NCBI GenBank assembly: GCA_016700015.1
Contig: CP064995.1
Coordinates: forward strand, 330,001 to 362,000
Origin: Candidatus Saccharimonadota bacterium
Lineage (GTDB): Bacteria > Patescibacteriota > Saccharimonadia > Saccharimonadales > Saccharimonadaceae
Direction of reading: 5' to 3'
Length of the DNA stretch: 32,000 nt
Made by a program: the position numbers and the translations under genes. The notes beneath the pieces are model-generated. The model was not told the DNA's origin. It did no database searches and saw nothing but the letters and a program-made list of their open reading frames with translations. Positions 11,401 to 29,605 of this stretch are shown in pieces (the stretch's first letter is position 1; every line of letters starts with the position of its first letter).

Positions 11401-12305
11401 AGGGTCAGGCCTATATGAGTGAAGTTACCGGACTTGTCGATGTATGGGAAGATGGCAAAAGGTATGTTGTTCAGGTGACCCCAGAAGCGGGACATGTCGA
11501 ACGCATGCCGCTTGAGGGCCGTACGGTAGCAGTAAAGGCTGGGAGCAATGTCAAAGTTGGTGATGTGCTGGCCACAACTGAAGGTGAAGCGCATCCGCTC
11601 GTCGCGCCATTTGACGGTGTTGTTGAATTAGCTGAAGATACTCTAGTGATTGCCGCTAACGCTAGTGCTCCAGTACGCTACGAAATTCCCGGTAGCGCGC
11701 AGCTTGTTATTAAGGCTGGCGACCATGTGGAAGCTGGAGATCGCCTAACTGGTGGCTCACTGAACCTGCATGATCTTATGCGCCTTAAGGGTACTGAAGC
11801 TACCCAGCGCTATATCATCAATGAAGTACTACGTATATACGCCGCCCAGGGACAAGATGTGGCTGACAAGCACCTCGAGATCATCGTTCGCCAGATGTTC
11901 AGTCGTGTGCAAGTTGAGGATCCGGGCGATAGCACCTTTGTGATGGGTGATATCGTCAGCAAAGCAAGCGTAGTTGATGCCAACAAATCACTTGCAGCAG
12001 CCGGCAAGACGCTGGCGCAGTACACACAGCTTCTGCTCGGTATTACCAAGGTGTCGATTTGGAGTGATAGCTGGCTCTCCGCTGCTAGCTTCCAGGATAC
12101 GACTCGTGTTCTGATCAATGCTGCTACTAGTGGACGCGCCGACAGGCTAAACGGCCTCAAAGAAAATGTGATCATCGGACGTAAGATTCCTGTTGGAACT
12201 GGTGCTCGAGGCTACGTGCCAGAAGCAGTCGATCTCGGTGATTTCGCGACCGATGAGACAGATGTTGTCGAAGAGATTTCGGCAGCAGTCGATCTGGAGT
12301 CGTAG
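8442..12305 (+). CDS. rpoC: DNA-directed RNA polymerase subunit beta-prime
   Basis: ATG lies 1 nt after the rpoB stop, with SD GGAGGAGG inside the rpoB 3' end. Catalytic NADYDGDQMAVH. Also RAPSLHRLSIQAF and GVIAAQSVGEPGTQLTLNTFH. Confidence 0.98.
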   Translation: MTRVVATTGIADFDAVRLAVASPEDILKWSYGEVTKPETINYRTQKPERDGLFCERIFGPVKDINPHDNKLKGVRSREAAIDKNGELVTKAIVRRERMAHINLAAPVAHIWFMRGTPSAMSLLLGITVRNLERIAYFATYVILAADNEKREQMLADLEAETEAARVAIKIRYEREAGVEDADVKKLAEAQSRELEELEATAGVKKVQLESLVKGAMLNETDYRNLPEEYEELVTVGMGGTALKAMLDEVDLPILIAELQAEVEGAKGQREKKLLKRLKVLEGMQAAGIKPSSLCLTVLPVIPPDLRPMVQLTGGRFATSDLNDLYRRVINRNNRLKKLIDLNAPEVIRRNEMRMLQEAVDSLIDNSAARGGRAVNATGGRRRLKSISDMLKGKQGRFRQNLLGKRVDYSGRSVIVVGPKLKIHQCGLPKQMALELFKPFVISWLIRGEYAHNIRSATRLIEAGEAVVWDALDACIEGKYVLLNRAPSLHRLSIQAFQPVLVEGKAIQLHPLVASGFNADYDGDQMAVHLPLSKEAQAEAKELMSAVNNLLKPADGSPVLNINQDIVLGNYYLTYNKPSAQTATVAVFANSRDAELAYDMGKLQLQSPIRVRAKDEIRTTTLGRVFFNEILPADFPYNDNVQNKKELKKVLAQIFDKYGAEETAHTADRMKGLAFRFATTSAVSTGMQDYLSFDEISEFIAEGDAKTALVSDQYDQGLITDDERYSLTVANWRGVDRRIEDFLRVELGKMDTSISTMVNSGARGNITNVKLASAMIGIQVDATNREIELPVRSNFKRGLSSLEAFVATRGARKGLIDTALKTADSGYLTRRLVDVSQDVFTVEDQTGDDEGFTIYRSESEMTMIDFGNRLYGRYTAKEVPGHVGKDELITRAIANAIEADSDVTEVTIQNVLSTNNLNGIPRKSYGLDMATNELVDNAQPVGVIAAQSVGEPGTQLTLNTFHSSGVGGSDITQGLPRVEELFEARTPKGQAYMSEVTGLVDVWEDGKRYVVQVTPEAGHVERMPLEGRTVAVKAGSNVKVGDVLATTEGEAHPLVAPFDGVVELAEDTLVIAANASAPVRYEIPGSAQLVIKAGDHVEAGDRLTGGSLNLHDLMRLKGTEATQRYIINEVLRIYAAQGQDVADKHLEIIVRQMFSRVQVEDPGDSTFVMGDIVSKASVVDANKSLAAAGKTLAQYTQLLLGITKVSIWSDSWLSAASFQDTTRVLINAATSGRADRLNGLKENVIIGRKIPVGTGARGYVPEAVDLGDFATDETDVVEEISAAVDLES

Positions 12306-12374: not shown

Positions 12375-13373
12375 CTAAAGGCTTACTTTCTGAGTGGTTT
12401 TTCCATCAGCGCTGCTGCAATCGGTGCCGAAGTACGCCTTCTTAATGTCGCTCCCTGCGTAATCACTACATGGTATAAGGCCTTGTGTGCCTGTAAAATA
12501 GTGCCATACTTTGTCGGGCGTCTGGTAGAATAGACCTGCAAATCCGCCCATACCGATTTGACCGTCCATGACGCCGCTGACACCAATCTGAGCCGTCTGG
12601 TAGCCTTGAGTGCTACTCGCTTTGACAACGGGTATGCCATTAAACAATACCGTTGCATCGACGTCAGATTTGTTTGGGTAGATACCATAAAATGGTGACT
12701 GAGCTTTGGCCGTACTCACGTAGTCGCTCATATTTCCACAGCCAATTACGAATTGATGAGGACCAGCCGGGTTGTTATATGTTTTTGTATCTAAGAGTGA
12801 GCAAACGACGTCAGCCTCGGCATAGCGAATTGTAGAAGTTTCCATATCATCAACGGAGTTCAAAGTAGAGTCACTAAACCCCTTTTCTTTTAGTAGCTTG
12901 GTTATTTTTGCACGCATGACAGGGGCATCGTTTGCCGGTACTGATTGTGCGATTGATACAATCTTATTGCGATCAATGCCTGTGTAGAAATCATAGCCAG
13001 CAACTTTCAGGGGCTGGAGCATTGCGGTCGACTCATTTTCTACGGTACCCCGAAGTATTTCATTTACGGCATTTATTGTGTCAGCTGCAGTTAGTTTTTT
13101 TGAAGAAACAGGAGAGGTAGAGCTCGAGGTTGTTTGCGTCGGTATTGGCTGTTTCTCAAAATATTGCTTGTATAGTAGGAGCGTGGCGACACCACCTAGC
13201 GCTACTAGCAATAGCGCTAATACGACGACAAGTAGGGGTTTTGACCGTCGCTTCTTTTTCTCTATCACAAGCTCATTCTGGGTTTGAGCGATCAAATTCT
13301 CATTGTTCAAGTCTTGTATCGCATGATCATTATCGACCAACTGGGCTGATTGTGATGCCGGACGGTTGTTCAT
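12375..13373 (-). CDS. hypothetical single-pass membrane protein with Ser/Thr-rich linker and Cys-containing extracytoplasmic domain
   Basis: Start taken at MNNRPASQ (ATG 13373-13371), which has SD AAGGAGAGG 5 nt upstream. The predicted promoter lies inside the longer ORF-track version. TM helix PLLVVVLALLLVALGGVATLLLY, then TQTTSSSTSPVSS. Confidence 0.75.
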   Translation of the reverse strand: MNNRPASQSAQLVDNDHAIQDLNNENLIAQTQNELVIEKKKRRSKPLLVVVLALLLVALGGVATLLLYKQYFEKQPIPTQTTSSSTSPVSSKKLTAADTINAVNEILRGTVENESTAMLQPLKVAGYDFYTGIDRNKIVSIAQSVPANDAPVMRAKITKLLKEKGFSDSTLNSVDDMETSTIRYAEADVVCSLLDTKTYNNPAGPHQFVIGCGNMSDYVSTAKAQSPFYGIYPNKSDVDATVLFNGIPVVKASSTQGYQTAQIGVSGVMDGQIGMGGFAGLFYQTPDKVWHYFTGTQGLIPCSDYAGSDIKKAYFGTDCSSADGKTTQKVSL

Positions 13374-13413
13374 ATTCCTCTCCTTATATTTGACAACTAT
13401 ACTTCTCATGTTT

Positions 13414-13442
13414 ATTGTAGGTCTCTCTGAACTGTGAAGCAA
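13414..13442 (-). promoter_or_regulatory. promoter TTGCTT-17 nt-TACAAT (read on the minus strand)
   Basis: Reverse complement of 13437-13442 is TTGCTT and of 13414-13419 is TACAAT. Confidence 0.5.
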
Positions 13443-13643: not shown

Positions 13644-14057
13644 ATGCCTACAATTAATCAGCTCGTGCGAAAACCTCGCCAGATTGCCGGGAAGAAGAGC
13701 AAATCACCGGCACTCGGGCGAATCCATAACGCACTGAAGGTTCGCTACTACGACCAAGACGCGCCGCTAAAACGCGGTGTTTGTGTCAAAGTCACGACCA
13801 AAACCCCGAAAAAACCAAACTCGGCGCTTCGTAAAGTTGCCCGCGTGCGCCTTACTAATGGTCACGAAGTTTGGGCTTACATTGGTGGCGAGGGGCATAA
13901 CCTACAAGAGCATGCTGTTGTGCTTGTTCGCGGTGGTCGTGTGCCCGATCTACCAGGTGTCCGTTACCACATAGTTCGCGGTGCGCTCGACCTGCAGGGT
14001 GTCGCAAAGCGCAAACAAGGCCGTAGTAAGTACGGTGCCAAGAAGGCGGAGAAATAG
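13644..14057 (+). CDS. rpsL: 30S ribosomal protein S12
   Basis: [12 protein letters not shown]..., [20 protein letters not shown] and [27 protein letters not shown] upstream. Confidence 0.98.
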
Positions 14058-14060
14058 TTT

Positions 14061-14540
14061 ATGCCAAGAAAAGTCACTAAGAAACTACAACGCACCATTA
14101 AACCTGATCGCAAATACCAGAGCGTACTGGTGCAACGTCTCATTAACAAGAGTATGCTTGATGGCAAGAAGTTGGCCGCTGAGCGAATGGTGTATGCCGC
14201 GCTTGAGCAGGCTGCTAAGACGCTAAAGAGCGAAGAACCACTTGAAGTGTTTGAAAAAGCTCTGAGAAACATTAGCCCGAATTTTGAAGTTAAAAGCCGT
14301 CGTGTTGGTGGTGCTAACTATCAAATTCCTTTCCCCGTGCAAGGGCACCGTCAGCTCCACTATGCATTTAGCTGGTTAGTGCAGAGTGCTCGTGGCCGCA
14401 GCGGCATTCCCTATGAGAAGCGTCTCGCGCTCGAAATTGTCGATGCCTACAATGAAACCGGCGCTGCCTTCAAGAAAAAAGAAGATACTCACAAAATGGC
14501 CGAAGCCAACCGAGCATTTGCTCATTTTGCGCGCAGCTAG
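14061..14540 (+). CDS. rpsG: 30S ribosomal protein S7
   Basis: MPRK...PDRKYQSVLVQRLINKSMLDGKK, NFEVKSRRVGGANYQIP and KKKEDTHKMAEANRAFAHF. Starts 3 nt after the rpsL stop. Confidence 0.97.
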   Translation: MPRKVTKKLQRTIKPDRKYQSVLVQRLINKSMLDGKKLAAERMVYAALEQAAKTLKSEEPLEVFEKALRNISPNFEVKSRRVGGANYQIPFPVQGHRQLHYAFSWLVQSARGRSGIPYEKRLALEIVDAYNETGAAFKKKEDTHKMAEANRAFAHFARS

Positions 14541-14558
14541 TTGCTCGCAGCAATCACT

Positions 14559-14585
14559 AAACCGCTCCACGCCTGGGGCGGTTTT
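14559..14585 (+). terminator. intrinsic terminator directly after rpsG
   Basis: 11-bp stem aaaccgctcca / tggggcggttt (one G-U pair) with loop cgcc. T run at 14582-14585. Confidence 0.55.
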
Positions 14586-14588
14586 AGG

Positions 14589-14617
14589 TTGCACTAAAGT
14601 GCACGGTCTGGCATAGT
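14589..14617 (+). promoter_or_regulatory. promoter TTGCAC-17 nt-CATAGT, 7 nt before the ATG of island gene A
   Basis: Hexamers at 14589-14594 and 14612-14617. No SD before ATG 14625. Confidence 0.45.
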
Positions 14618-14624
14618 TGAATCA

Positions 14625-15347
14625 ATGGGGGAAAAAGCACCGAAAAGTACAGATGGGTATGTATGCTCGGCGAAGAGCGCACGCCTACTTAGTCGTCTGG
14701 CGGACCATAGTGATTATGTTTATGTTGTAGGCAACCGTGTTGTCGTCGAGAAAATGATCGATACTCCCTACAACGAGCATGGAATTGTTGATACGCGCGA
14801 GCTGTTCCGCAGAGTGCTTGGGACGGTATCTACAGAATATTACTGGCAGGGGTCGTATGAGGGCCCACACCATATTATGTGGCCACGAGGGTGGTATAGA
14901 CAAAAAACCGATGGTAAACAAATTGCAATGCAGTTTCGCAATAGCCCAACACTTCGTTTGTATTTACCCAGAGATCTGCATGACTTTACACATAAAATTA
15001 CCGACCCACCTGTGCCACCGAGCAGAGATGTTATGGAACAATACATCCTCGAACAGTGCCAAGTGCAGAACCTTTACGATATTGTTCGTTTTCACGGGCT
15101 CCACGATCTTCATGGTATGGCGCATGACGACAAAGAAGCATATCGCCTAGAACGATTTCGTGAACGGCTGAGTGAAATGGAGGATGGTTACGTAGGAGTC
15201 ATGCCAAGTCGCGAGTTTCTGGCGGCTCTTCCGCTACACACGGCACGACAAGTGGTTCGATCCCTCGCGCGAGTACAGGGGCTGTCAAACGATAAAGCAT
15301 CGAGAAAAGCCTTTTTCAGCCCATCCCGCAGCCAACTTGTCGCGTAA
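14625..15347 (+). CDS. hypothetical protein with xHH / HNH (His-Me finger)-like motif (island gene A)
   Basis: PHHIMWPRGWY-x13-N-SPTLRLYLPRDLHDFTHK has the order HH...P...N...LP..H...H, as in colicin-DNase/AHH-GHH type HNH nucleases. There are no zinc Cys ligands. This is a motif-level call only. Confidence 0.55.
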   Translation: MGEKAPKSTDGYVCSAKSARLLSRLADHSDYVYVVGNRVVVEKMIDTPYNEHGIVDTRELFRRVLGTVSTEYYWQGSYEGPHHIMWPRGWYRQKTDGKQIAMQFRNSPTLRLYLPRDLHDFTHKITDPPVPPSRDVMEQYILEQCQVQNLYDIVRFHGLHDLHGMAHDDKEAYRLERFRERLSEMEDGYVGVMPSREFLAALPLHTARQVVRSLARVQGLSNDKASRKAFFSPSRSQLVA

Positions 15348-15355: not shown

Positions 15356-15385
15356 TTGCATATTTGTCAAATATGTATTTATATA
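15356..15385 (+). promoter_or_regulatory. possible promoter TTGCAT-17/18 nt-TTATAT/TATATA in the AT-rich A-B spacer
   Basis: TTGCAT at 15356-15361. The AT-rich -10 candidates at 15379-15385 lie 9-10 nt before ATG 15395. Confidence 0.3.
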
Positions 15386-15394
15386 AATAACAAT

Positions 15395-16393
15395 ATGATT
15401 GATAGACAGCCGTCTGATAAATTTAATACCACTCCTGATGAAGCTGAGTTGTTTGCTTCGCTCAATGAGCAGCTGAGCGACCCACTTGTCGAGAATATAT
15501 ACACACAGGCACGCAAGTTTTTGCAGGACGCGAACACAACCGCAACTACTAATGAAGAACTGGTCGCTATGATACGAAAACTTGACGGACAATGGCCATA
15601 TATGAATACGCCCATGTGGGTATCTGGCACGCTACATACGGCAGATGTTATATCTGGCCAGTTCCGCGCTCGACAGGTAGTTGACTTGCCGGTAATCTCA
15701 AATGGTTTTATGTTTGCACCGGCTACGACTGTTGTTGACGGTGAAGTTGTGCAAGCGGGTCATCGAATTGGTCATTCTGTGCACGTAAGAGATGATACCG
15801 GCGCAATGTCATTTCCGGGCTTCGTGAGTCTGGATGAACTTGATCATTTAGAACTTCCATTCCCATCGGTCGAGCGTAGGCTGCAGCGATTCGCCTATGA
15901 TTTTCCAGAGTATGCGGCCGACATTGATACAATTGCATTCCAGGCGCGTCGCGATGACCAAATTGTCAAAGATATCGAAGCTTTTTATTTTGATGCTGAC
16001 GTCGACGATCCGCTCGATCTTGAGGCTGTTCGTGATGCGATGGTGTACTTAACCTACAAGGCCGAACTTGAGCCCAATTTGCCGTACTATGTGTCATTTG
16101 TCGGTCCCTTCATTGGGGTTGGAAGTAACGGCGAGCCATATCCGAACTCTCTGCAATATCCCCAGCAAGGTGTGATCTCAATCCACCAAATATTGCTTCG
16201 TCCTGGCGATGTAACGATAAAACAGACCAACGGTCGTCAGCGGCTCGTACCGTTTATCGAAGCGACGCTCCATAGCGCAACGCGAGATGGGACAGACAAA
16301 CACCTTCTCATTCCCTGCGGGGGTATTCAATGGATTGAGTCTGCGCGCTATACTTCGCCGCATGTTGCGCTATTCCGAGGCAAGGAGCCGTAG
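15395..16393 (+). CDS. hypothetical acidic protein, paralog family member 1 (island gene B)
   Basis: I prefer ATG 15395 (MIDRQPSD) over the ORF-track TTG 15356, which overlaps promoter-like AT-rich sequence. Shares four ordered motif blocks with genes C and D (see findings). Confidence 0.75.
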   Translation: MIDRQPSDKFNTTPDEAELFASLNEQLSDPLVENIYTQARKFLQDANTTATTNEELVAMIRKLDGQWPYMNTPMWVSGTLHTADVISGQFRARQVVDLPVISNGFMFAPATTVVDGEVVQAGHRIGHSVHVRDDTGAMSFPGFVSLDELDHLELPFPSVERRLQRFAYDFPEYAADIDTIAFQARRDDQIVKDIEAFYFDADVDDPLDLEAVRDAMVYLTYKAELEPNLPYYVSFVGPFIGVGSNGEPYPNSLQYPQQGVISIHQILLRPGDVTIKQTNGRQRLVPFIEATLHSATRDGTDKHLLIPCGGIQWIESARYTSPHVALFRGKEP

Positions 16394-16395
16394 CG

Positions 16396-18474
16396 ATGGC
16401 TGAGACACACGACGGTTCAGCTGATTTTGAGCCAGTACATTATAGCGCGGTTGCCGAACATGACGAAGTACTCGAAACGCTGAGGCAGCGTATCCGCGAT
16501 GTTGAGCGTATGCTCCGCGAGGATGAGTTACATGTCAGCGATGACCAGTTTACTCAGCTTACATTGGCTATCGAAAATGATTGGCCCTATAGCGCTTCGC
16601 CGGTGAAGTTGTTTGCAAAACTCCGGGCCCTCAGTGAGGGTGCTCCACTGCCGAATGCTATGCGCGACGCCTATGGCGAGTACTATATTCCTGACGGTTC
16701 AGCGCTCATGACAGCATGGGGCATGGAGTTTGTGCCACTCGACGATGCATCGGCCATGAGGGCGGTGTACATGTTTAGTCAGGTAGGTTCAAGTGCCGAT
16801 AGTCCCCGTTACTATTGCTTTGACGAGGATATCTTTTCGCTACAATTTGCAGAAATTGCTCCCGCGTCTCTTACCTGGCAACTCGAACGGCTAATGCCCG
16901 AAGCTATCACTGCTATTAACGCAGCGATCGAGGAGGGGGCGAGCCTGACCGACAAGATACGTGGTATGGAACACCTTTCGTTGAAATTACAGCCTTCAGA
17001 GTTCGGTGACTATAATATTCTTGATAAACTCGCGATGTACATGAACGATCGTTTGGGGATCGACCACCGTATTATGCATAATCTTGAGCTTGAGGGGTCG
17101 TTTATAATCACTGGTCATGATGATGAGGGCGATGAAATACAGTTTCCCGCAACCCTGAAAGAACCGTTCCATACCCCTGGGTATATTGGCTCCGTGCAGT
17201 TGGCTCTCGCAAAACAGCTAGATGGCAATGAAGCATATGTACCCCTGTTAACATTGTATACCCACACCGAGACAGATGGTGATGATGACGATGATGTGCT
17301 GCTTGTGCCGGTGGCGACCCTGCGCTCGGCAGTTTGTGTTCGGCCTCGCCTGTCGCTTGCCCGCAGTCTAGCGGCTCGGGTTGGTCCTGAATCGCTCGCT
17401 ATTGAAGTGGCTGAGTACGATGACGCTCAAATTACCGACATAGCACCAGCAAGGGGCACGACTCACTACGAAACGATCCGCTACCATCAGACTTTGCTCT
17501 ACGGTGCCCGAGAATTTGCTAAACAAGCGGCAAGTGTATGCTACGAAACAGCCGAAGATGCCATAGAAGCTGCCGAGACAGTTCAGCAGGCAATCGTCGA
17601 TATGTTCGGTGACGACTGGGAGGCTATGGAACAACATACCTATGTGGCGGATGGTATAGGTATATCGATACCAAACTATCTTCACGATGGCTACGAGAAC
17701 ACTGAACCGGGGATGCCGGGTGGTGCAATAATTTTCCGTCCCAACCCCGAACAAAATATTCGCGAAAACAGCCTTATGGAGCGGTACCATGTATCTTTGG
17801 AAGAGGTTGTTGCCTATGTGGACCAAGTCGAAGAGGGGGAAGGCGATGTATCGTATAGGGTGGGGATTGAAATGGCAGTAAAAGTGCTTGACCGTCCGAT
17901 TATGTATCGGCAGGCTATCCCGGGTTCTCGCCGCATTGCTCGTGATGTCAGTGTGACGGAGTATATATATGTACCGCTTGACGATACGGCGAGTTTACTC
18001 AATATTGACCTACACGATATGGAGCAGTTTAGTGTTGCTATGAAACGGTTTAAGCGTAGGCTTGAGGATATGCCTGATCTTAAAAAATCATACAGGGCTC
18101 TTTTAAAGCTTCAGCAAGCACTATTCTATGAGCGAGACGATGGTGAGCTGACATCGCTTCACCGCGTGGAATTATTGCAGGTACTAGGAGAGCAGGGTGG
18201 CGGTGATGAGCATGCCGCAGGACTAATCGTTGATTCACTCAGCGATTTACTGGGCGCAAAACGCCGGGTTAGCGTTGTGGGCGAAGTCCGGTACGAGGGC
18301 AAAGAGACTCATGCTGGAGCATTTGATGCAATAACAGGCGTAATCACTGATATCGTTTCTTCTTATGCGGGTTCGCCAGTTGAAGAGCCAATGCTTGTGT
18401 TTACGCGGCTCGACCCCACTGGCCCGACTCGGCTCTATGTGCCAATCGCTAGTCTAAAAGAATTCCATTTCTAA
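16396..18474 (+). CDS. hypothetical acidic protein, paralog family member 2, with C-terminal extension (island gene C)
   Basis: SD AAGGAG at 16381-16386. The ATG lies 2 nt after the gene B stop, indicating translational coupling. The first ~325 aa are homologous to B and D. Confidence 0.8.
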   Translation: MAETHDGSADFEPVHYSAVAEHDEVLETLRQRIRDVERMLREDELHVSDDQFTQLTLAIENDWPYSASPVKLFAKLRALSEGAPLPNAMRDAYGEYYIPDGSALMTAWGMEFVPLDDASAMRAVYMFSQVGSSADSPRYYCFDEDIFSLQFAEIAPASLTWQLERLMPEAITAINAAIEEGASLTDKIRGMEHLSLKLQPSEFGDYNILDKLAMYMNDRLGIDHRIMHNLELEGSFIITGHDDEGDEIQFPATLKEPFHTPGYIGSVQLALAKQLDGNEAYVPLLTLYTHTETDGDDDDDVLLVPVATLRSAVCVRPRLSLARSLAARVGPESLAIEVAEYDDAQITDIAPARGTTHYETIRYHQTLLYGAREFAKQAASVCYETAEDAIEAAETVQQAIVDMFGDDWEAMEQHTYVADGIGISIPNYLHDGYENTEPGMPGGAIIFRPNPEQNIRENSLMERYHVSLEEVVAYVDQVEEGEGDVSYRVGIEMAVKVLDRPIMYRQAIPGSRRIARDVSVTEYIYVPLDDTASLLNIDLHDMEQFSVAMKRFKRRLEDMPDLKKSYRALLKLQQALFYERDDGELTSLHRVELLQVLGEQGGGDEHAAGLIVDSLSDLLGAKRRVSVVGEVRYEGKETHAGAFDAITGVITDIVSSYAGSPVEEPMLVFTRLDPTGPTRLYVPIASLKEFHF

Positions 18475-18485
18475 CCTGTCTATGC

Positions 18486-18515
18486 TTGCAAATAGCGCGA
18501 TATATTTGACACAAT
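18486..18515 (+). promoter_or_regulatory. possible promoter TTGCAA-18 nt-CACAAT, 7 nt before the ATG of island gene D
   Basis: Hexamers at 18486-18491 and 18510-18515. No SD before ATG 18523. Confidence 0.3.
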
Positions 18516-18522
18516 ATAAAGT

Positions 18523-20238
18523 ATGAGTGAGTATACATCTGCCAATCCCGACGACGCAAATCACGCGGCCGAAGAGCTGCTTGGTAAACTCGAATTATTT
18601 CGATTTGACCCTCTACTTCAGAAATTATTTGACGAAATTGAGATTGCTCAGGAGTCGCTCCCTGGCTACGACAAGCGCGAAGCCAAAGACCAGGTAAAAC
18701 GACTTAATGAGATGCTACGCAGTACGGGCTGGATTGGTACACCGGTGGAGGTGACCGGTAAGCTGCGCATTGCGCCGTGGTGCGATATCGACGAAGCCTA
18801 TAGCGATCATGTAGGGTCGCAGGCACGGAAAGGGCGAGACGAGCTAGGTGAATATTTTGAAGTAGTCGGCCTCAACATGGTGTGTGCGCTTATCGAAATT
18901 GATACCGAAACCTATGACGACGCCGCAACCGGGCGTTTTGTCATGACACTGACCACGCCCGACGCCATGGTCGATGCCGAAGATGAAGTCGACGATGTTG
19001 ACCTGGAAGAGCTGCTAAACTCTGCCGGCGAGTATTATTTCTACCGATCAGACATTGTCGAGCTATCGTTTCGCGAGCCGTCGACCGAGCAGACTGGTGT
19101 TATGCTGGCCAACCATTACCCAAAGATTTTGCAGCGCATCCACCACGACATACCAGAGGGTCAGCCAGCAGGCCACCACATGCTCGGCGCACTAAAGCGA
19201 TTTGAACTGGAATACGATGTGCGCTACACCAATGAGTTTTTGCAGCATATTGTCGATTATATTTATGCCCGTATTTGCCCCGACAGTGGACAGTATCGTT
19301 TCACGCTCGATGGTCTCATTGGCACCGCTGCTGTCGAGACTGGTTTAGAGTGGGAGCATATGCCGGAGCGAACAAAGCTTTCGGGAGTGATCGTAGGCTT
19401 TGATATGGTATGGGCTAACGACGCCTACCGCATGGCATTTGTTGTCGCCGAAGAGGCGGTTGCCTATGACGGCGGTTTCGAGCTTCGGCTCATCCCCGTA
19501 GATAGTGTGATGAAGCTTGAATGCTTAAGGCCTAGTCGCAAACGGTTTGGTGAGCTTGCGGTGCACGCCTTTACATCGCCAGAAGAGGTGATGGACTATT
19601 GGCGTGAAGCAGAGAGTAACCCCAGGCCCCTACCTGAAATCGTCGCACAACCAGAAGTACCTGGGTCTAATGATGAAATATTTGCGGCCCTCACCGACGG
19701 TTTAGTCAGTGAAATGCATGCAATTGCATATCACGATAGTGTTCTTGGCGCAGACCTTGTGTCTATCCAGCCCGACATTGATATGATTGTGACTGATTTT
19801 GCCGACCATGTGCGCATGTCTGAGGAATGGGACATCGATACGCCACTAAGTGCTAGTGATTTAGCTGCTATTAGTAAACTTATGGATAAAACACTTTCGC
19901 GCTTAGAGGCTTTGCGTGTAGGCGATAGGGTCGTAGCGGGTGGGCGGGTGCTTATTCTCGACGAGAGCGAGCCTGGTGTTAGTGATGTAGTGGTGGTTGA
20001 CGAAGGCACTTGCATTGTCGGTACGAGCGTCAATACGGTCATTTGCGACGTGCCAGAACTAGCATTTTATGATGAAGAATCCGGCACAACTCCGCGGAGT
20101 ACGATTGGTGTCGGGATACTGCTTGAAAATTGCCAAATTATAGATGGCGACGAAATACATGACGCGCCGTTTCATTCAAAGCAGGTGATTGTAGTGCTTT
20201 CACCGTCGCAAGGCACCGATTTCTACCAGGTTGTATAA
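18523..20238 (+). CDS. hypothetical acidic protein, paralog family member 3, with C-terminal extension (island gene D)
   Basis: The first ~345 aa carry the same ordered motif blocks as B and C. Acidic runs such as DAEDEVDDVDLEELL. Confidence 0.8.
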   Translation: MSEYTSANPDDANHAAEELLGKLELFRFDPLLQKLFDEIEIAQESLPGYDKREAKDQVKRLNEMLRSTGWIGTPVEVTGKLRIAPWCDIDEAYSDHVGSQARKGRDELGEYFEVVGLNMVCALIEIDTETYDDAATGRFVMTLTTPDAMVDAEDEVDDVDLEELLNSAGEYYFYRSDIVELSFREPSTEQTGVMLANHYPKILQRIHHDIPEGQPAGHHMLGALKRFELEYDVRYTNEFLQHIVDYIYARICPDSGQYRFTLDGLIGTAAVETGLEWEHMPERTKLSGVIVGFDMVWANDAYRMAFVVAEEAVAYDGGFELRLIPVDSVMKLECLRPSRKRFGELAVHAFTSPEEVMDYWREAESNPRPLPEIVAQPEVPGSNDEIFAALTDGLVSEMHAIAYHDSVLGADLVSIQPDIDMIVTDFADHVRMSEEWDIDTPLSASDLAAISKLMDKTLSRLEALRVGDRVVAGGRVLILDESEPGVSDVVVVDEGTCIVGTSVNTVICDVPELAFYDEESGTTPRSTIGVGILLENCQIIDGDEIHDAPFHSKQVIVVLSPSQGTDFYQVV

Positions 20239-20280
20239 CGGAATTAGCCGGTTTCGCTACTAGTCACCCCAGGGAGAATG

Positions 20281-20289
20281 TGCTATACT
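20281..20289 (+). promoter_or_regulatory. extended -10 element TGcTATACT upstream of fusA
   Basis: TG at 20281-20282 and TATACT at 20284-20289, leaving a leader of about 64 nt with SD AAGGA before ATG 20354. Confidence 0.4.
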
Positions 20290-20353
20290 ACACCCCAAGT
20301 GCTATTTTCTAATGGCAAAAATTGGTAGCTAACTAAATAATAAGGAACAACGA

Positions 20354-22441
20354 ATGGCAACTCCAACCAATGTCCCACTCAAGGACTTTAGAAACGTCGG
20401 TATTATCGCGCATATTGATGCTGGCAAAACAACCACAACCGAAGGTATTTTGTACCGTACTGGCCTGAGCCACAAAATCGGTGCCGTGCACGAAGGTGAA
20501 ACGACGACCGACTGGATGGAGCAAGAGCGTGAGCGCGGTATCACTATCACCAGTGCGGCCGTGACGTGTTTTTGGAAAGACCACAAAATCAACATCATTG
20601 ACACTCCTGGTCACATTGACTTTACAGCTGAAGTAGAGCGTAGTTTGCGCGTGCTTGACGGTGCCGTGACAGTATTTGACGGCAAAATGGGCGTGGAAGC
20701 ACAGAGTGAAACGGTGTGGCGCCAGGCCAACAAGTACGGTGTGCCGCGTATCTGTTTCATCAACAAAATCAACCAGACTGGTGGCGACTTTTACAAATCG
20801 CTCCAGAGTATTCACAATCGTCTCAGCAAAAATGCGCTACCTATCCATTTGCCAATTGGGTTTGAAAAAGACATCAATGGTGTTGTTGACCTTGTTGACA
20901 TGAAAGCCTATACGTATGGTGACTTTACTGATCATGAGCTTGTGCAAGGTGAAGTTCCTGCCGATATGCTCGAAAAAGCTAAGAACGCGCGTAGTCTACT
21001 GGTTGAGGCCGCTGTCGAGGCCGACGACGCGCTGATGGAGAAGTTCTTCGAGCACGGTGAAGAAGCGATTAGCGTAGAGGAGTTAAAGGTTGCTTTGCGT
21101 AAGCGTGTGCTGGCAGGCGACTTTTATCTTGTTACGGGTGGCGATGGCCGCGGTGTCATTGTCGAAAAGGTGCTCGACCTCATGGTTGACTATTTGCCAA
21201 GTCCGCTTGATGTAGCTGAAATATGGGGCAAAAACCCTAAAACTGGCGACGAAGTGAGCCGCAAACCTGACGACAAAGAACCAATGGCTGCGCTGGCCTT
21301 TAAGCTCGCAACCGACCCATTTGTCGGTAAGCTGATTTTTGTGCGCGTGTATAGTGGTGTGTTGACGGCCGGTAGCTACGTGCTCAATACCACTACTGGC
21401 GAAAAAGAACGCATCGGGCGTATTGTCCGTATGCACGCCGACAAGCGTGAAGATGTCGACAAGGTTGGTGCTGGCGACATTGCCGCAGTCGTGGGGCTCA
21501 AAGGCACCTTCACTGGCCATACACTTTGCGACGTCGCTCACCCGATTGCGCTTGAAGCGATTACATTCCCTGAACCCCCAGTCAGTATTGCTGTCGAGCC
21601 AAAAACCAAAGCCGACCAAGAAAAAATGGGCATTGCCTTGCAACGCCTGGCCGAAGAAGACCCAACCTTCCGTGTGCATACCGACGACGAAACTGCTCAA
21701 ACGATTATGAGCGGTATGGGCGAGCTTCACCTCGAAATTCTGATCGACCGCATGAAGCGCGAATTTAATGTTGAGGCCAATGTTGGTGAGCCGCAAGTCG
21801 CCTTCCGTGAAACCATCAAAGGTACCGCCGAAGTGCAGGGCAAGCACGCCAAGCAGTCTGGTGGACGTGGTCAGTATGGTGACGTATGGGTACGCTTTGA
21901 GCCAAATGAACCTGGCAAAGGCTTCGAATTTATCGACGCTATTAAGGGTGGTGTGGTGCCACAAGAATACCGCCCAGCCGTACAAAAGGGTATTCGTGAA
22001 ACACTCGATGGCGGTGTGATTGCCGGCTATCCAGTGGTTGATGTCAAAGCAACGCTCTACGATGGTAGCTATCACGATGTTGACTCAAGCGAACTCGCCT
22101 TTAGCCTAGCTGGTAGCCTTGCTGCCCGCGCTGGTGTGAAGCAGGCCACTCCGATCATCCTTGAACCCGTCATGCATGTCGAAGTGACTACACCCGAAGA
22201 ATTCATGGGTGATATCATCGGCGACCTCAATAGCCGTCGTGGCCGTATAGAAAGCATGGAAGACCTGATGGGCGGCGCCAAGCTGATTAAGGCGATTGTG
22301 CCACTTGCCAACATGTTTGGCTATACTGGAGACATCCGCAGTATGAGCCAAGGCCGCGCTGCCAGCACCATGGAGCTCGCGCACTACGAAGAAGTCCCGC
22401 CAAACGTGGCGCAGGAAATCATCGAAAAGCGCAGCAAGTAA
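20354..22441 (+). CDS. fusA: translation elongation factor G (with atypical G4/G5 motifs)
   Basis: G1 [12 protein letters not shown], switch I RGITI and G3 DTPGHIDF are present. Domain IV/V regions match, e.g. [12 protein letters not shown] and [13 protein letters not shown]4 reads NKIN rather than NKxD. Confidence 0.96.
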
Positions 22442-22494: not shown

Positions 22495-22513
22495 AGTTTG
22501 TGCTTAAATCTAC

Positions 22514-22542
22514 TTGTTTTTCCTACCTGTCGCTCGTATGAT
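22514..22542 (+). promoter_or_regulatory. promoter TTGTTT-17 nt-TATGAT for the rhs gene
   Basis: Hexamers at 22514-22519 and 22537-22542. SD AGGGAGG at 22553-22559. Confidence 0.45.
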
Positions 22543-22563
22543 AAAAGCAACAAGGGAGGTTAT

Positions 22564-25500
22564 ATGCGGGGATATGTTGGTGTATTTGGTCGGGGCAAAA
22601 AGGTTATTCAGCGCAGTGCGCTGTTTTTTCTTACCTTTATGCTTGTGTTTGGGCTTATTGAACCGGGTATTTACCGCGCCTATGCCGAAAGTAACTCCCA
22701 GAAAGTGTTTCGCACCGACTACAAGCTAGACCCACTTTTGTCACAAAACCCAGCCACAAGCACGGTGCTCACCGAAAGCGGAGGTACTGAGCTACAACGC
22801 CCACTTGCCGAAAACGCCAGGCAATACCGCTATGAAGATACCACCAAGCGAACAAGTAACACATCGACGTCCGTCAACAATGATGGTACAAAAACACTCC
22901 TGTATAGCCAAAAGCAGCTTAACTACAAACAGGGCAACAAATGGGAGAAAATAGATAACCAGCTTTCCGCAACCGAGAACATAGCGCCAGCGGCTAATTT
23001 GTGGCAAATCCTCACCAACACCGCACCTAAAGCAGATGCTCCGAGCGAGTACACAGGCAAGGCCGGACAGGCAGCTGTGGCCATGAAACGCTCCAATGAA
23101 GGCATTAGTATAGCCATCGCCAACAAGACCATCACCATGACTCCAGTGGGAGCGGCTGGGGCAAAACCAGAAAAAATTGATGACACATCGGTTTTATACC
23201 GCGACGTTTGGCCCGGGATCGATCTGCAGTATGAGCTTCGCGGCGAAGCCATCAAAGAAGCAATCATCATTAAATCAAAATCCGCAAAGACAAACTTCGA
23301 GTTTATGTTTGGCGGTGGGAGTTTGAAGCAACATCCAAAATATGAGGGCAAGTTAACTGTTGAGGGTCTGCCCGACAGTTATGTTCTTGGTGACCTGTCG
23401 GTTCAGCTTAATGACCGTGGAGTCATCAGCGAGCAGCCTATGACGCAAAAAATAGTGGATGGCAAGCTTGTTGTTTCGCTCGACGCAAAGTGGTATGCGG
23501 CGTTGCCAGAGTCATCATTTCCAATACGTATAGACCCTACGCTCGGACCAGTCAATGACCAGACTGACTGGATGTTTAAGTCAGATGGATACTCGTGCAA
23601 CGGCTGGACATGCTGGATCAATACCGGCTCTATCTACGACAACGGTTGGAAAAGCTGGCGCACACTGTTCCAGTTTCCATACCCAGAGCTTGCAGGCAAG
23701 CGCATTGTTAATGCAAACATGCACGGTACGTTTCAGCCTAACGCCAATGGTGATACCAATGGTAGAAACATCTATATGGGCCATGCGACATGCATTGGAT
23801 TTAACTGTACGGGTATTTACATTGGTAATGCATGGGCGGGGACTGATTTTGACATCAACTTCACCAATGAACTGAATAACACGGTTGCATCGGGCGACAT
23901 GGGCGCGGTATGGAGTGTGTGGGGTGAAGAGGGCGCGTACAAGAGTTTCAAGCCATATCACTACATGACAGCAACCGTGGTGTATGACACGCCGACCCCA
24001 GTTGCTCCGGCTGTTTCACCTGCAAATGCACAAGTTGTTGTTGACACACAGCCAACACTTCGTGTTAACGCGGTTACAGATGCCGATGGCGATACAGTTC
24101 AATATTATTTCAGGGTAAGCACTAACCCCGACGCCGAAAGTGGAGCAGTCATCAATTCGGGATGGATTTCGTCCCCGCAATGGACAATACCCGATGGCGT
24201 ACTACAAGACGGTACCACATACTACTGGCATGTGTACACTCTTGGTGCGACTCAGACAAATCCAAACTGGACGCGCAACTTTAAAGTAGATCTACGTACG
24301 GGCAAAGACAGCACTCAGAGCTATGACACAGTCGGTCCGGTGGGTATCGACCTTGCGACTGGAAATGCCACCATGGGCGTGGGCACTCACGGTATGAAGG
24401 CACTGGGTGGTACAATCGGCCTAAACCTTAGCTACAACACGCCAAACCGGGCAAAAAGGGGCTTAAGTGCCGAGTACTGGAATTTACCTGCAAACTATAG
24501 TTTTGCGAGTGGTGCGCCCAGCTCGGCTGCCACCGTGACAAGGCGTGACCAAAACATCGACAACAACTGGAGTAGTGGATCACCCACGCCGGCGATAACC
24601 AACGATTGGTTCTACGCGCGCTGGACGGGGCAGTTTGTGGCGCCGGTCACGGGTACGTACAATTTTGGCGGGTCCAATGATGACACAATGAGGGTGTGGG
24701 TAAATGGTGCCGAGCAATACAACCAGAATTGCTATAGTGGCATATGCTATGACACGACGAAAAGTATAAGCCTGAGCGCAGGGCAGGCGGTGCCGATCAA
24801 AGTTGAATACCTAGATGCCGTTGGTGCGGCCAATGCTAAATTGTATGTCAAAGGCGCGGTGCCGGAGCAGGTAGTGTCGTCAGACTGGCTCTATAGCGAC
24901 GTGGTCAATTCTCCGCTCGGCTATGGTCTGACCGGTCGGTACTATACGGACAATGCCAATGCTCACGACTTCGATGCCGCAGCAGCTGATCCATTTCGTC
25001 TTATGATGCAGCGAGTTGATAGCAGTATGACTCTCAACTTTGGATTGAATGGGCCAGCACAAGGACTCCAGGCCGACAACTTTATGGCGCGCTGGACTGG
25101 CTACATAACCGTTCCCACTGCTGGTAGCTATACGCTCGGTGCTACTTCGGACGACGGTATCCGTATAAAAGTAAATACTGGCACCTGGCAAACGCCACTC
25201 GATAGTTTGGTTGACCATGCCGGTACCTACTGGGGTAGTGCGGTGTCACTGCCCGCCAACACGCCTATTCCGATCCAGGTCGACTGGTATGACCACGGTG
25301 GCGGTGCTCAGCTAAACCTACAGGTGCAGGGCAATGGCTATGCCGCACAGTCTGTGCCAGCTACCTGGCTCACGCCAGACGCCAATGTGCTCCCCGCACA
25401 GTGGAAGCTTGGTATTGATGCCGACGGCAATGTTGCCTACGAGCGGCTACGAGTAACTACGAACTCAGTGATTCTCGAAGATTCAACCGGCAGTACACAT

Positions 25501-28500: not shown

Positions 28501-29592
28501 CCATCGCTCACAAATGTCCAGTACGACACCCACGGCAATACTACTAGCCTTGGTGACGCTACTCATAAAACAACCTTTGGCTACGACTCCACTGATCGTA
28601 ACACAAGTATCGGAGGCAATGGCACCACTAGCTTCATCCGTGACGTCCAGAGCCGTATCGTCACACGCGAGCATAAAGACGGAGCGGGCACCACCACTAG
28701 CCTCGTCAACTATGGCTTCACTGGCAGTGGCGACACTCCCGACTTCCTCACCGACAATACTGGTACAGTGGTGCAAAAGTATCTGACACTCCCGGGTGAC
28801 GTGTTAGTGACCATCAAACCCCAATCCACCAGTGCTGGTGCCACTACCTATAGCGTGCCTAATATCCATGGCGATGTGATGGCGACAGTCAACGCCGACG
28901 GAGCCCTTACCAGCACCTTCCTGACTGGCCCTTTCGGCGAAGTACTCCCCACCCAACCACAGACTACTACCACACGTGGCGGTGCGCTCACCACCCCAGA
29001 ACCACTGCAACAACTCGCCCCATCGTCTACTCCAACCAACACTGCATCCGGCACCACCTACAGCTACGTCGGTCAACACGAGAAGATGACGGATATAGAA
29101 ACCAGTGCTATAGTGGGTGGTATCACCCAAATGGGTGCGCGTGTTTACATACCAGTGCTAGGACGGTTTCTGAGTATTGACCCGGTAGATGGTGGTGTAG
29201 ATAACAATTACAACTATCCAAATGATCCGGTGAATAACTTCGATTTGAGCGGAGAGGCGCAGCACGGTAAGCAGCAGGCGAAACCTAAAGTCTTATCGTA
29301 TAGGGAACAGGAACTTTTAAATGGTCCAAAAACTAAAATTAACTCAAAAGAGTATCAAAAAGCTCTCGACAAAGTTAAATACAATGAAAAGATATCGGGC
29401 GTAAGGAAATCACGATGGTCAAACTCGAAACCATCAACTCCGACACTCAAACCAAGTGGAAAAACATCGACGCCTAAAGTCAATATATCTGCCAAGCCAA
29501 CTACACGCCTTCCGATAATTTGGATGATCATAATGCCTAAGACGATCTATAATGGGTTGCTGTACGGGCCGGGTGGCGGAGCTCCCGTATAG
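22564..29592 (+). CDS. WapA/Rhs-family YD-repeat polymorphic toxin precursor (2342 aa) with N-terminal signal/anchor, three PA14 modules and a variable C-terminal tip
   Basis: Start taken at ATG 22564 ([32 protein letters not shown] is a hydrophobic signal/anchor). There are many YD repeats, e.g. [71 protein letters not shown]. The Rhs core end is [41 protein letters not shown]. Confidence 0.93.
24460..24890 (+). other. PA14-like domain 1 within the Rhs protein
   Basis: [10 protein letters not shown]...[36 protein letters not shown]...[20 protein letters not shown]. Confidence 0.8.
24925..25380 (+). other. PA14-like domain 2 within the Rhs protein
   Basis: [10 protein letters not shown]...[34 protein letters not shown]...[20 protein letters not shown]. 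Confidence 0.8.
26194..26538 (+). repeat. three tandem ~35-aa protein repeats of the RFYN..GDH..T type embedded in the YD-repeat region
   Basis: The three units are [64 protein letters not shown] and [31 protein letters not shown]. Confidence 0.6.
26890..27300 (+). other. PA14-like domain 3, inserted inside the YD-repeat region
   Basis: [16 protein letters not shown]...[41 protein letters not shown]...[27 protein letters not shown]. Confidence 0.6.
29257..29589 (+). other. variable C-terminal tip (putative toxin) of the main Rhs protein, family unrecognised
   Basis: About 111 aa after the core-end motif DLSGE. It is Lys-rich ([45 protein letters not shown]...) and ends in a hydrophobic segment, [27 protein letters not shown]. 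Confidence 0.5.
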
Positions 29593-29605
29593 AAAGGAAT
29601 CAAAT

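What the first reader, a model, noticed from the sequence alone, without database searches (positions are those of the whole stretch)
15395..20238. Three tandem genes encode distant paralogs sharing a ~330-aa module; two carry extra C-terminal extensions
B, C and D share four motif blocks in the same order.
- Block 1: B LVAMIRKLDGQWPYMNTPMWVSGTL / C LTLAIENDWPYSASPVKLFAKL / D LNEMLRSTGWIGTPVEVTGKL.
- Block 2: B LDHLELPFPSVERRLQRFAYDFPEYAADI / C IFSLQFAEIAPASLTWQLERLMPEAITAI / D IVELSFREPSTEQTGVMLANHYPKILQRI.
- Block 3: B VRDAMVYLTYKAELEPNLPYYVSFVG / C ILDKLAMYMNDRLGIDHRIMHNLELEG / D FLQHIVDYIYARICPDSGQYRFTLDG.
- Block 4: B DGTDKHLLIPCGGIQWIE / C DGDDDDDVLLVPVATLRS / D YDGGFELRLIPVDSVMKLE.

B (332 aa) is essentially one module. 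C (692 aa) and D (571 aa) continue with extensions that end in a similar strand-like motif: C has EYIYVPLDD and RLYVPIASLKEF, and D has QVIVVLSPSQG. This may be a degenerate second copy. All three are visibly D/E-rich. Deep divergence with conserved order suggests ancient tandem duplication and subfunctionalisation, as seen in immunity or inhibitor arrays or in hetero-oligomeric assemblies.
Basis: seen in the sequence. Interest (0 to 1): 0.7.

Follow-up and report, generated by a model that had tools for sequence, protein, structure and literature searches.

The report
Orphan paralog cassette inside str operon
Three neighbouring genes in a Candidatus Saccharibacteria genome are ancient duplicates of an unknown protein family with no detectable relatives, found only in one small clade and always wedged between the ribosomal protein S7 gene and the elongation factor G gene; what it does is still unknown.

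Summary
B (15395-16393), the N-terminal half of C and the N-terminal 345 aa of D share one ~330-aa module, M1. hhalign gives B~C1 98% (E 5e-14) and C1~D1 97% (E 4e-10); B~D1 is weak directly (16%) but both match other M1 modules at >=99%. The four motif blocks are the family's conserved positions.

The extensions are two separate modules. C2 is M2 and D2 is M3, and both occur as standalone genes in relatives. M2 probably shares only its terminal beta-subdomain with M1 (76-82%). M3 matches nothing.

The organism is a Candidatus Saccharibacteria MAG (QQS22268-71, all 'hypothetical'). Only 38 relatives exist among 1.84 billion representative proteins. All 11 sampled lineages carry the family between rpsG and fusA, in at least 8 architectures. 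All fall in one EF-G clade (bootstrap 99) with a single loss.

The genes are under purifying selection (dN/dS ~0.1). AlphaFold2 folds C confidently (pLDDT 83). The proteins are acidic and cytoplasmic and lack catalytic-type conserved residues. Pfam, NCBIfam, PHROGs, PADLOC, PDB and viral structure libraries gave no match.

Best reading: a vertically inherited, clade-specific accessory operon whose paralogous products probably form a non-enzymatic complex. Its function is undetermined.

The parts
14061..14540 (+). rpsG (ribosomal protein S7), left flank of the cassette
   Evidence: Pfam Ribosomal_S7 on the identical gene in L001; ORF
14557..14587 (+). GC-rich hairpin followed by TTTT just after the rpsG stop; marks the left boundary. 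The same hairpin is present at empty sites.
   Evidence: RNA fold of 14541-14590: -20.6 kcal/mol, z -2.9. The equivalent hairpin in cassette-free L010 has z -5.7. Alignment of occupied and empty sites.
14589..14617 (+). Promoter-like site for gene A (TTGCAC, 17 nt spacer, CATAGT, with TG upstream), ending 7 nt before the ATG; this suggests a leaderless mRNA
   Evidence: Read directly from the sequence. It aligns with the extended -10 of the fusA promoter at empty sites. Inferred, not shown.
14625..15347 (+). Gene A: 240-aa basic protein (pI 8.8) with invariant H82, R105, P115, H119, H123 and P132. An accessory first gene of the cassette.
   Evidence: A-family alignment of 5 lineages. HMM hits only in cassette loci. 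In-frame TGA in L005/L006, split into two ORFs in L089, absent in L090, L100, L102 and L105. No Pfam, PHROG or PDB match.
15356..15384 (+). Promoter-like site for B-C-D (TTGCAT, 17 nt spacer, TTATAT), overlapping the palindrome ATATTTG-T-CAAATAT (15360-15374)
   Evidence: Sequence. 100% conserved between the window and L005, while the flanking coding DNA is not. -35-like and TAAATA boxes recur upstream of the first M1 gene in 6 lineages, but the palindrome does not.
15395..16393 (+). Gene B: 332 aa, a single M1 module (B-type, position 1)
   Evidence: M1 HMM E 1e-81 over the full length; hhalign; B-type clade bootstrap 99-100; dN/dS 0.114 against L005
16396..17382 (+). Gene C, residues 1-329: M1 module (C1-type)
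   Evidence: M1 HMM E 2e-100; AF2 pLDDT mostly 83-92 over this module; hhalign to Bfam 98.2%
17383..17454 (+). Gene C, residues 330-353: disordered linker between M1 and M2
   Evidence: AF2 pLDDT <50 for residues 330-353
17455..18474 (+). Gene C, residues 354-692: M2 module, ending in the family's YVPxxxLxxFxF tail
   Evidence: M2 HMM E 4e-107. hhalign to standalone M2 proteins 99.8% and to fused M2 modules 99.9%. Standalone M2 genes lie directly upstream of fusA in L009, L020 and L096. dN/dS of C 0.128.
18523..19557 (+). Gene D, residues 1-345: M1 module (D1-type)
   Evidence: M1 HMM E 2e-84. phmmer to the N-modules of P0034 (5e-14) and P0031 (9e-10). D1 clade bootstrap 99, sister (81) to the M1 of the M1-M2 genes in L093/L089.
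19558..20238 (+). Gene D, residues 346-571: M3 module, unrelated to M1 and M2
   Evidence: M3 is a standalone gene of 194-229 aa in L089 (E 9e-9), L093 (E 2e-5) and L102 (2e-16). hhalign to M1 and M2 is not significant. dN/dS of D 0.102.
20261..20289 (+). fusA promoter-like site (TAGTCA, 17 nt spacer, TATACT, TG-extended), followed by a 5'UTR motif conserved with empty sites; marks the right boundary
   Evidence: Promoter scan; alignment with the L010/L015 empty sites; sequence
20354..22441 (+). fusA (EF-G), right flank of the cassette
   Evidence: Pfam GTP_EFTU, EFG_III, EFG_IV and EFG_C on the identical gene in L001

Best explanation
B, C and D are anciently duplicated paralogs of an orphan protein family confined to one genus-level clade of Candidatus Saccharibacteria.

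The family is built from three modules. M1 (~330 aa) makes up B, C residues 1-329 and D residues 1-345. M2 (~340 aa) is C residues 354-692; its terminal beta-subdomain is probably an old copy of M1's. M3 (~225 aa) is D residues 346-571.

Together with an accessory basic His-motif protein (A), they form a cassette. It was acquired once, inserted between the hairpin that follows rpsG and the promoter of fusA. Since then it has been inherited vertically while being remodelled by duplication, fusion, fission and loss of modules. D itself most likely arose from an M1-M2 gene plus an M3 gene, by loss of M2 and fusion.

Shown: homology, modularity, position, clade restriction, purifying selection and a confidently predicted fold.

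Inferred: the products are soluble, acidic cytoplasmic proteins without an active site. They are made together from cassette-internal promoters with tight or overlapping gene spacing. They assemble through their shared modules into a hetero-oligomeric binding or scaffold complex rather than acting as enzymes. The ligand or partner is unknown. The link to translation genes may be functional or merely historical.
For: - Homology and modules.
- Family size and restriction: B, C and D each have only 2-3 relatives among 5.8 billion clusters. There are 38 hits among 1.84 billion representatives. GTDB species genomes hold no relative of C, and neither do IMG/VR or the phage records.
- Position: all 11 sampled lineages lie between rpsG and fusA, in at least 8 architectures.
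- Single origin: the EF-G tree puts all carriers in one clade (bootstrap 99). Only L010/L011 inside it are empty, and the sister lineage L015 and all outer lineages are empty. The empty sites are clean.
- Long residence: GC and GC3 match the flanks.
- Ancient duplication: the positional M1 clades have bootstrap 85-100.
- Real, constrained genes: dN/dS 0.10-0.13; AF2 pLDDT 82.6 with 26 sequences.
- Non-enzymatic and cytoplasmic: the conserved columns are mostly G, P, L and Y, plus D23, D91, D223 and R316, with no conserved H, C, S or K. There is no TM or signal segment.
- Co-expression: the B stop and C start are 2 nt apart. The M1M2 stop overlaps the M3 start in L089 and L093. Promoter-like boxes are conserved upstream of the first M1 gene.
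- Nestedness: in the fully sampled cassettes, the B-type M1 and M3 occur only together with further M1- or M2-bearing genes, whereas M2 or M1-M2 can stand alone.
Against: - No interaction was tested; no multimer prediction was available.
- Lack of a recognisable active site does not prove absence of catalysis. D23, D91, Y215, D223 and R316 in M1 could form a site.
- A is repeatedly broken or lost, and the cassette architecture is unusually fluid for a housekeeping-type complex.
- L102 lacks M2 and L096/L009/L020 lack M1, so no single module is indispensable.
- Only about 20 kb around each gene was seen, so paralogs elsewhere in these genomes cannot be ruled out.
Confidence: 0.55

Rival explanations
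1. Conflict system. A is a His-metal (HNH-like) nuclease toxin or effector. The acidic M1/M2/M3 proteins are its inhibitors, sensors or immunity partners, making this a large toxin-antitoxin or defence-type module.
For: A is basic (pI 8.8) while B-D are acidic. A has an invariant H...R...P..H...H core resembling an HH-N-HxxxH His-Me motif. A is inactivated or lost in several lineages while the M genes persist, as expected when a toxin is purged. The M genes show fluid duplication and fusion. All components are orphans.
Against: No PADLOC, PHROG, Pfam HNH or Imm match for any member. The cassette sits at a single fixed locus, is restricted to one clade and is inherited vertically with one loss, unlike defence islands or TA modules, which move. 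The M proteins stay under purifying selection where A is a pseudogene. Cassettes without A are common. Divergence is no faster than that of a neighbouring ordinary accessory gene.
Confidence: 0.2
2. Translation-linked accessory factor. The M proteins bind EF-G, the S12/S7 region of the ribosome or another translation component. They are kept next to fusA because they are co-regulated with it.
For: The position is invariant, directly upstream of fusA, in 11 of 11 lineages despite heavy internal remodelling. The cassette is retained in almost the whole clade. The genes are on the same strand as the str operon. The acidic surface could complement basic ribosomal proteins or mimic RNA.
Against: fusA keeps its own promoter and 5'UTR, and the cassette has its own promoters, so co-transcription is not required. 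The same junction accepts unrelated cargo in other Saccharibacteria: an alpha-amylase, a kinase and an IS30 element. Position may therefore simply reflect a permissive site plus low rearrangement in small genomes. The L010/L011 lineage lost the cassette without a visible change at the site. The family has no similarity to known EF-G-binding proteins (no Pfam hit).
Confidence: 0.15
3. Selfish mobile cassette. A is a free-standing homing endonuclease that targets the conserved rpsG-fusA junction and drags the M genes along as cargo, spreading by natural transformation.
For: The insertion lies between two extremely conserved genes with clean empty alleles. A sits at the cassette edge and shows the decay pattern typical of homing endonuclease genes: a nonsense codon, a frameshift and outright loss. 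A promoter-like TG-extended -10 box occurs at both cassette ends.
Against: A matches no HNH, GIY-YIG or LAGLIDADG model. The EF-G tree is compatible with one gain and one loss. The rank order of cassette divergence roughly follows that of the housekeeping genes. Composition shows no anomaly. A 5-kb cargo is atypical. The family is absent from all other taxa.
Confidence: 0.07
4. The ORFs are not functional genes, being either spurious or decaying insertion remnants, and the shared motifs arise by chance or from composition.
For: Pairwise BLASTP E-values are not significant. All four genes are annotated 'hypothetical'.
Against: dN/dS is 0.10-0.13 with dS 0.5-1.2. ORF lengths are conserved across lineages that are 21-87% identical. 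The AF2 model is confident. hhalign probabilities are 97-99.9%.
Confidence: 0.01

Closest known systems
Tandem arrays of polymorphic-toxin immunity genes (Imm families next to RHS/CDI-type toxins)
   Same: Runs of divergent paralogous, cytoplasmic, often acidic proteins without enzymatic motifs. A PA14/RHS-repeat giant lies 2 kb downstream in this window.
   Different: The modules are 225-340 aa and the proteins reach 690 aa, whereas from general knowledge Imm proteins are typically ~100-200 aa. There is no credible Imm Pfam hit: one member of 26 matched Imm42 at E 0.13. fusA separates the cassette from the RHS gene, and that gene is absent from the orthologous loci L005, L096 and L098. The cassette occupies one fixed site and is inherited vertically.
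Free-standing homing-endonuclease genes inserted between conserved genes (for example the phage T4 seg/mob genes; from general knowledge)
   Same: Occupied and empty alleles of a junction between highly conserved genes. The edge gene A carries a His motif and decays repeatedly.
   Different: A cannot be assigned to any nuclease family. The cassette carries 5 kb of conserved, selected cargo. There is no sign of horizontal spread.
EF-G-binding accessory proteins (FusB/FusC-type FBP family; from general knowledge)
   Same: This would be the nearest functional analogue if the cassette acts on EF-G: non-enzymatic proteins that bind a translation GTPase.
   Different: No sequence similarity: Pfam models for that family did not hit. 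The size and predicted secondary structure differ. From general knowledge, FBP genes are not embedded in the str operon.
Hetero-oligomeric complexes built from duplicated subunits encoded in one operon
   Same: Ancient in-operon duplication, conserved gene order of the paralog types, translational coupling, and stepwise addition of subunits across lineages.
   Different: Complex formation has not been shown here, and no member of the family has a known function.

Membership tests
HNH / His-Me finger nucleases (gene A) | Significant match to an HNH-type sequence model | tested here: not met
   No Pfam hit at E<=5 for any of the 5 A-family members. No PHROG hit at E<0.05. The PDB profile search found only Plexin-A1 at E 0.11.
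HNH / His-Me finger nucleases (gene A) | Conserved catalytic His at the end of a beta-strand, plus metal-binding N/H...H on the following helix | tested here: inconclusive
   H82, H119 and H123 are invariant, and an HH...LH(D/N)xxH pattern is present. The 'N' position is not conserved (N, G or E), and the spacings are longer than in colicin-type HNH.
HNH / His-Me finger nucleases (gene A) | beta-beta-alpha-metal fold | not tested
Polymorphic-toxin immunity proteins | Match to a known Imm family | tested here: not met
   Pfam on the window proteins and 26 homologs gave only Imm42, at E 0.13, in one member.
Polymorphic-toxin immunity proteins | Conserved adjacency to the cognate toxin gene | tested here: not met
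   The RHS/PA14 gene lies beyond fusA and is absent from L005, L096 and L098.
Known anti-phage defence systems (PADLOC-DB 2.0) | HMM match of any component | tested here: not met
   No family at E<=1 for A, B, C or D.
Phage or plasmid-borne genes | Homologs in phage genomes or viral contigs | tested here: not met
   tblastn of C and A against 50,697 phage records found no match. The IMG/VR scan found none. PHROGs gave only noise. Plasmids were not searched.
Any curated protein family (Pfam-A, NCBIfam) or solved structure | Sequence or fold match for M1, M2 or M3 | tested here: not met
EF-G-binding proteins (FusB/FBP) | Match to the FBP sequence models | tested here: not met
   No such Pfam hit in any of about 40 proteins scanned.

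The most novel reading that the evidence does not exclude
The M1/M2/M3 proteins are a clade-specific accessory complex of the translation-elongation machinery in ultra-small episymbiotic Saccharibacteria. On this reading they bind EF-G or the S12/S7 decoding region, which explains why every one of at least 8 architectures stays locked between rpsG and fusA. This would be a previously unknown, lineage-restricted layer of translation control built on folds with no known relative.
Probability: 0.15. Interest if true: 0.8.

Novelty: categorically new. Interest (0 to 1): 0.5.

Why it matters
From general knowledge, rpsL-rpsG-fusA is among the most conserved gene orders in bacteria. Here one clade of Candidatus Saccharibacteria has carried a 5.8-kb set of orphan genes inside it since the clade arose. 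The clade has kept these genes under selection and rebuilt them repeatedly by duplication, fusion and fission of three modules. None of those modules has a detectable relative in sequence or in the structure libraries available.

The locus offers three things. First, it is a compact natural series for studying how multi-subunit proteins grow by duplication and fusion. Second, it provides confidently predicted folds with no match in the libraries searched. Third, it is a candidate lineage-specific function in organisms whose reduced genomes (about 1 Mb here) leave little room for dispensable DNA.

The caveat is that many orphan families exist in candidate-phyla-radiation genomes. Without a function, the significance remains potential.

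Tried and rejected
1. Pairwise BLASTP of B, C and D was not significant. It was superseded by shuffle statistics and profile comparisons.
2. AF2 of C with only 3 sequences gave pLDDT 38 and was unusable. It was repeated with 26 sequences.
4. Pfam, NCBIfam, PHROGs and PADLOC on window proteins and homologs found nothing credible.
5. A as a Fic protein: the weak VbhT hit (E 0.008) was rejected because the Fic motif HxFx(D/E)GNGR is not conserved in A.
6. A as an HNH nuclease: the motif-level resemblance has no model support and is kept only as a lead.
7. D2 as a degenerate M1 or M2 copy: rejected.
8. 'M2 is universal': rejected after L102 was found to be M1-M1-M3-M1.
9. 'Exceptionally fast evolution': rejected. 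The neighbouring membrane ORF diverges as fast or faster.
10. 'Patchy distribution implies mobility': rejected. The EF-G tree needs only one gain and one loss.
11. Link to the downstream RHS giant: rejected, because the gene is absent in orthologous loci.
12. The palindrome upstream of B as a conserved operator: it is conserved only between the window and L005.
13. The GTDB genome scan and IMG/VR scan with the C profile found no relatives.
14. Rfam and tRNA scans of the window found nothing.
15. Four literature searches found no description.
Full report
**Setting**

The finding lies in a co-directional run of genes:
- rpoC (8442-12305)
- a minus-strand membrane ORF (12375-13442)
- rpsL (13644-14057)
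- rpsG (14061-14540)
- A (14625-15347, 240 aa)
- B (15395-16393, 332 aa)
- C (16396-18474, 692 aa)
- D (18523-20238, 571 aa)
- fusA (20354-22441)
- a 2364-aa PA14/RHS-repeat protein (22498-29592)

The four genes therefore sit inside the str operon, between the genes for S7 and EF-G. The exact proteins are GenBank QQS22268.1 to QQS22271.1 (IPM09_01860 to 01875). All are 'hypothetical protein' of a Candidatus Saccharibacteria MAG with a 1.01-Mb contig.

**Checking the observation**

Pairwise BLASTP among B, C and D is not significant. The best result is E 0.017, although the weak segments are co-linear. Smith-Waterman scores against 300 shuffles give the following:
- B against C(1-335): z 8.2, p about 1.5e-5
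- C1 against D1: z 4.7, p about 1.4e-3
- B against D1: z 1.6, not significant
- the C-terminal parts resemble nothing

Word-indexed searches of 5.8 billion protein clusters found only 2-3 relatives per protein. An exhaustive HMMER search of 1.84 billion representatives with the C profile found 38 proteins. These include about 25 two-module proteins of ~660-750 aa and about 10 single-module proteins of ~300-360 aa.

With these, hhalign gives the following:
- Bfam~C1fam: 98.2% (E 5e-14, 287 columns)
- C1fam~D1fam: 96.7% (E 4e-10)
- Bfam~D1fam directly: only 16%
- Bfam and D1fam against the other N-terminal modules: 99.4% and 99.5%

The shared ~330-aa module, here called M1, is real.

**The extensions**

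C(336-692) is a second module, M2. It matches the C-terminal halves of the two-module proteins at 99.9% and the standalone ~300-340-aa proteins at 99.8%. Such standalone M2 genes lie directly upstream of fusA in L009, L020 and L096.

D(346-571) is a third module, M3. It occurs as a separate 194-229-aa gene just downstream of the M1-M2 gene in L089 and L093, and within the array in L102. HMM E-values are 9e-9, 2e-5 and 2e-16.

Is M2 a degenerate M1? With small family profiles there is no signal. With the 26-sequence alignment the results are:
- whole modules: 57.9% (E 1e-4)
- helical block plus terminal beta-subdomain: 81.8% (E 1e-5)
- terminal beta-subdomain alone: 75.6%

These alignments are co-linear at the C-terminal end. 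Scores are 13-16 SD above column-shuffled controls.

In the confident AF2 model both halves of C show the same block order: 2-3 helices, a large beta-sheet, 4-5 helices, then a five-stranded beta unit. Each half ends in the (L/Y)(L/Y)VP(V/I)A(T/S)L(R/K) motif. At least the terminal subdomain is probably duplicated. The remainder is undecided.

M3 matches neither M1 nor M2.

Acidity is confirmed, with pI 4.3-4.7. It comes mainly from low K+R. B's D+E content is ordinary.

**Real genes**

Against the ortholog locus L005, dN/dS is 0.114 for B, 0.128 for C and 0.102 for D, with dS 0.5-1.2. For comparison, rpsL, rpsG and fusA give 0.013-0.022.

AF2 with 26 homologs folds C with mean pLDDT 82.6. It predicts two domains joined by a disordered linker at residues 330-353. 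A-D have no transmembrane or signal segment, GC and GC3 match the flanks, and the window holds no further copies.

**Context and distribution**

Every lineage whose context could be read carries the family between rpsG and fusA on the same strand. That is 11 of 11.

| Architecture | Loci |
|---|---|
| A-M1-[M1M2]-[M1M3] | window, L005, L007/8 |
| M1-[M1M2]-[M1M3] | L090 |
| M1-M1-[M1M2]-[M1M3]-M1 | L100 |
| A-M1-[M1M2]-M3 | L093, L089 |
| A-[M1M2] | L098, L104 |
| [M1M2] | L105 |
| A-x-M2 | L096 |
| M2 | L009 (next to an IS30 transposase), L020 |
| M1-M1-M3-M1 | L102 |

An EF-G tree places all carriers in one clade with bootstrap 99. Inside that clade only the L010/L011 pair is empty. The sister lineage L015 and all more distant Saccharibacteria are empty. 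One gain and one loss suffice.

Empty sites read: rpsG stop, hairpin, TG-extended -10 promoter, conserved 5'UTR, fusA. In the window the hairpin (14557-14587) stays with rpsG, and the promoter plus UTR (20261-20353) stays with fusA.

The same junction holds unrelated cargo in other Saccharibacteria: an alpha-amylase in L013, and an APH-family kinase and DUF520 in L020. It is therefore a permissive site.

No relative of C was found in 185,579 GTDB species genomes. L009 and L020, which surfaced through the EF-G scan, carry M2 copies too distant for that C-based scan to detect. None was found in IMG/VR or in phage records.

**History of the paralogs**

The M1 tree covers 38 modules with 100 bootstrap replicates. 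It shows three clades:
- a B-type clade: position 1 in six genomes, plus P0036; bootstrap 99-100
- a C1-type clade: bootstrap 85-92
- a D1-type clade: bootstrap 99

The D1-type clade is sister (81) to the M1 of the M1-M2 genes in the L093/L089-type cassettes, where M3 is a separate gene. The duplications therefore predate the lineage splits. D is best explained as an M1-M2 gene that lost M2 and fused to the downstream M3.

Cassette divergence is 77-87% identity to L005 and 21-45% to L093. This is not exceptional. The neighbouring membrane ORF is 42% and 26% identical in the same comparisons.

**Gene A**

A is basic (pI 8.8). It has invariant H82, R105, P115, H119, H123 and P132 in an HH...LH(D/N)xxH pattern reminiscent of His-Me nucleases. 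No Pfam, PHROG or PDB model supports that reading.

A carries an in-frame CGA>TGA change in L005/L006, seen in two samples. It is split in L089 and absent from L090, L100, L102 and L105. A is therefore accessory to the M genes.

**What it is not**

The RHS giant is not a conserved neighbour. The literature searches found no description.

**Mechanism**

Conserved columns in M2 are almost all Gly, Pro, Leu and Tyr. In M1 they also include D23, D91, Y215, D223 and R316. Neither module has a conserved His, Cys, Ser or Lys set.

Three more observations bear on mechanism:
- Gene spacing is tight or overlapping.
- Promoter-like boxes lie upstream of the first M1 gene in six lineages.
- Module co-occurrence is nested.

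The best-supported reading is a co-expressed, non-enzymatic hetero-oligomer built from paralogous subunits. Its target is unknown.

The rivals, with probabilities:
- a conflict module with A as nuclease: 0.2
- a translation-linked accessory factor: 0.15
- a homing cassette: 0.07

All remain open because no interaction, activity or whole-genome data could be obtained here.

**Verdict**

The family is an orphan with no known relative. Its confinement to a single locus in the str operon, together with its modular plasticity, is unusual. Because its function is unknown, interest is moderate (0.5).

Noticed in passing
window 14625-15347; L005 9233-9955; L006 156-878; L089 396-1075: Gene A is intact in the window but carries an in-frame CGA>TGA stop in the L005/L006 lineage, seen in two independent samples. 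It is split into 125-aa and 100-aa ORFs in L089 and absent from L090, L100, L102 and L105. B-D remain intact and under selection throughout.
   Followed up: yes
L013 5904-8001; L020 2364-8001; L009 1-2584; L064 915-8001; L024 5260-8001; L088 5947-8001: The rpsG-fusA junction is a recurrent insertion site in other Saccharibacteria and Patescibacteria, carrying unrelated cargo. L013 has an alpha-amylase. L020 has an APH-family kinase, DUF520 and membrane proteins. L009 has an IS30 transposase. L064, L024 and L088 hold 2-7 kb of unclassified ORFs.
   Followed up: partly
window 22498-29592 (and small ORFs at 29552-31487): A 2364-aa PA14/GLEYA/RHS-repeat protein sits immediately after fusA, where tuf normally follows. 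The orthologous loci L005, L096 and L098 have different genes there. The small downstream ORFs could be immunity genes; they were not examined.
   Followed up: partly
window 12375-13442 (-): The membrane ORF between rpoC and rpsL evolves very fast. It is 42% identical to its L005 counterpart while RpoC is 94% and S12 is 98%, and 26% identical to L093. It has no Pfam family.
   Followed up: partly
window 14589-14627 and 15356-15397: The start codons of A and B lie only about 7-10 nt downstream of -10-like boxes, which suggests leaderless mRNAs. A perfect palindrome, ATATTTG-T-CAAATAT (15360-15374), overlaps the B promoter spacer. It is conserved with L005 but not in more distant lineages.
   Followed up: partly
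window 20298-20330; L010 and L015 upstream of fusA: A fusA 5'UTR motif (AAGnGCTATTTTnTnATGGCAAAAAnT) is conserved between occupied and empty sites. Its predicted fold is no more stable than shuffled sequence (z -0.6). No Rfam family matches.
   Followed up: partly
model of C (window 16396-18474): Foldseek reported one local, high-probability (0.91) hit of a 77-column small beta domain to chlororibosome protein 9tvu_P. The region of C involved was not given, and the hit was not explored.
   Followed up: no
L100 1-6014 and 14891-16842: In L100 the rpoB, rpoC and fusA genes are broken into many short ORFs, probably by frameshift errors in a long-read assembly. The five-gene cassette in that locus reads through intact.
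   Followed up: no
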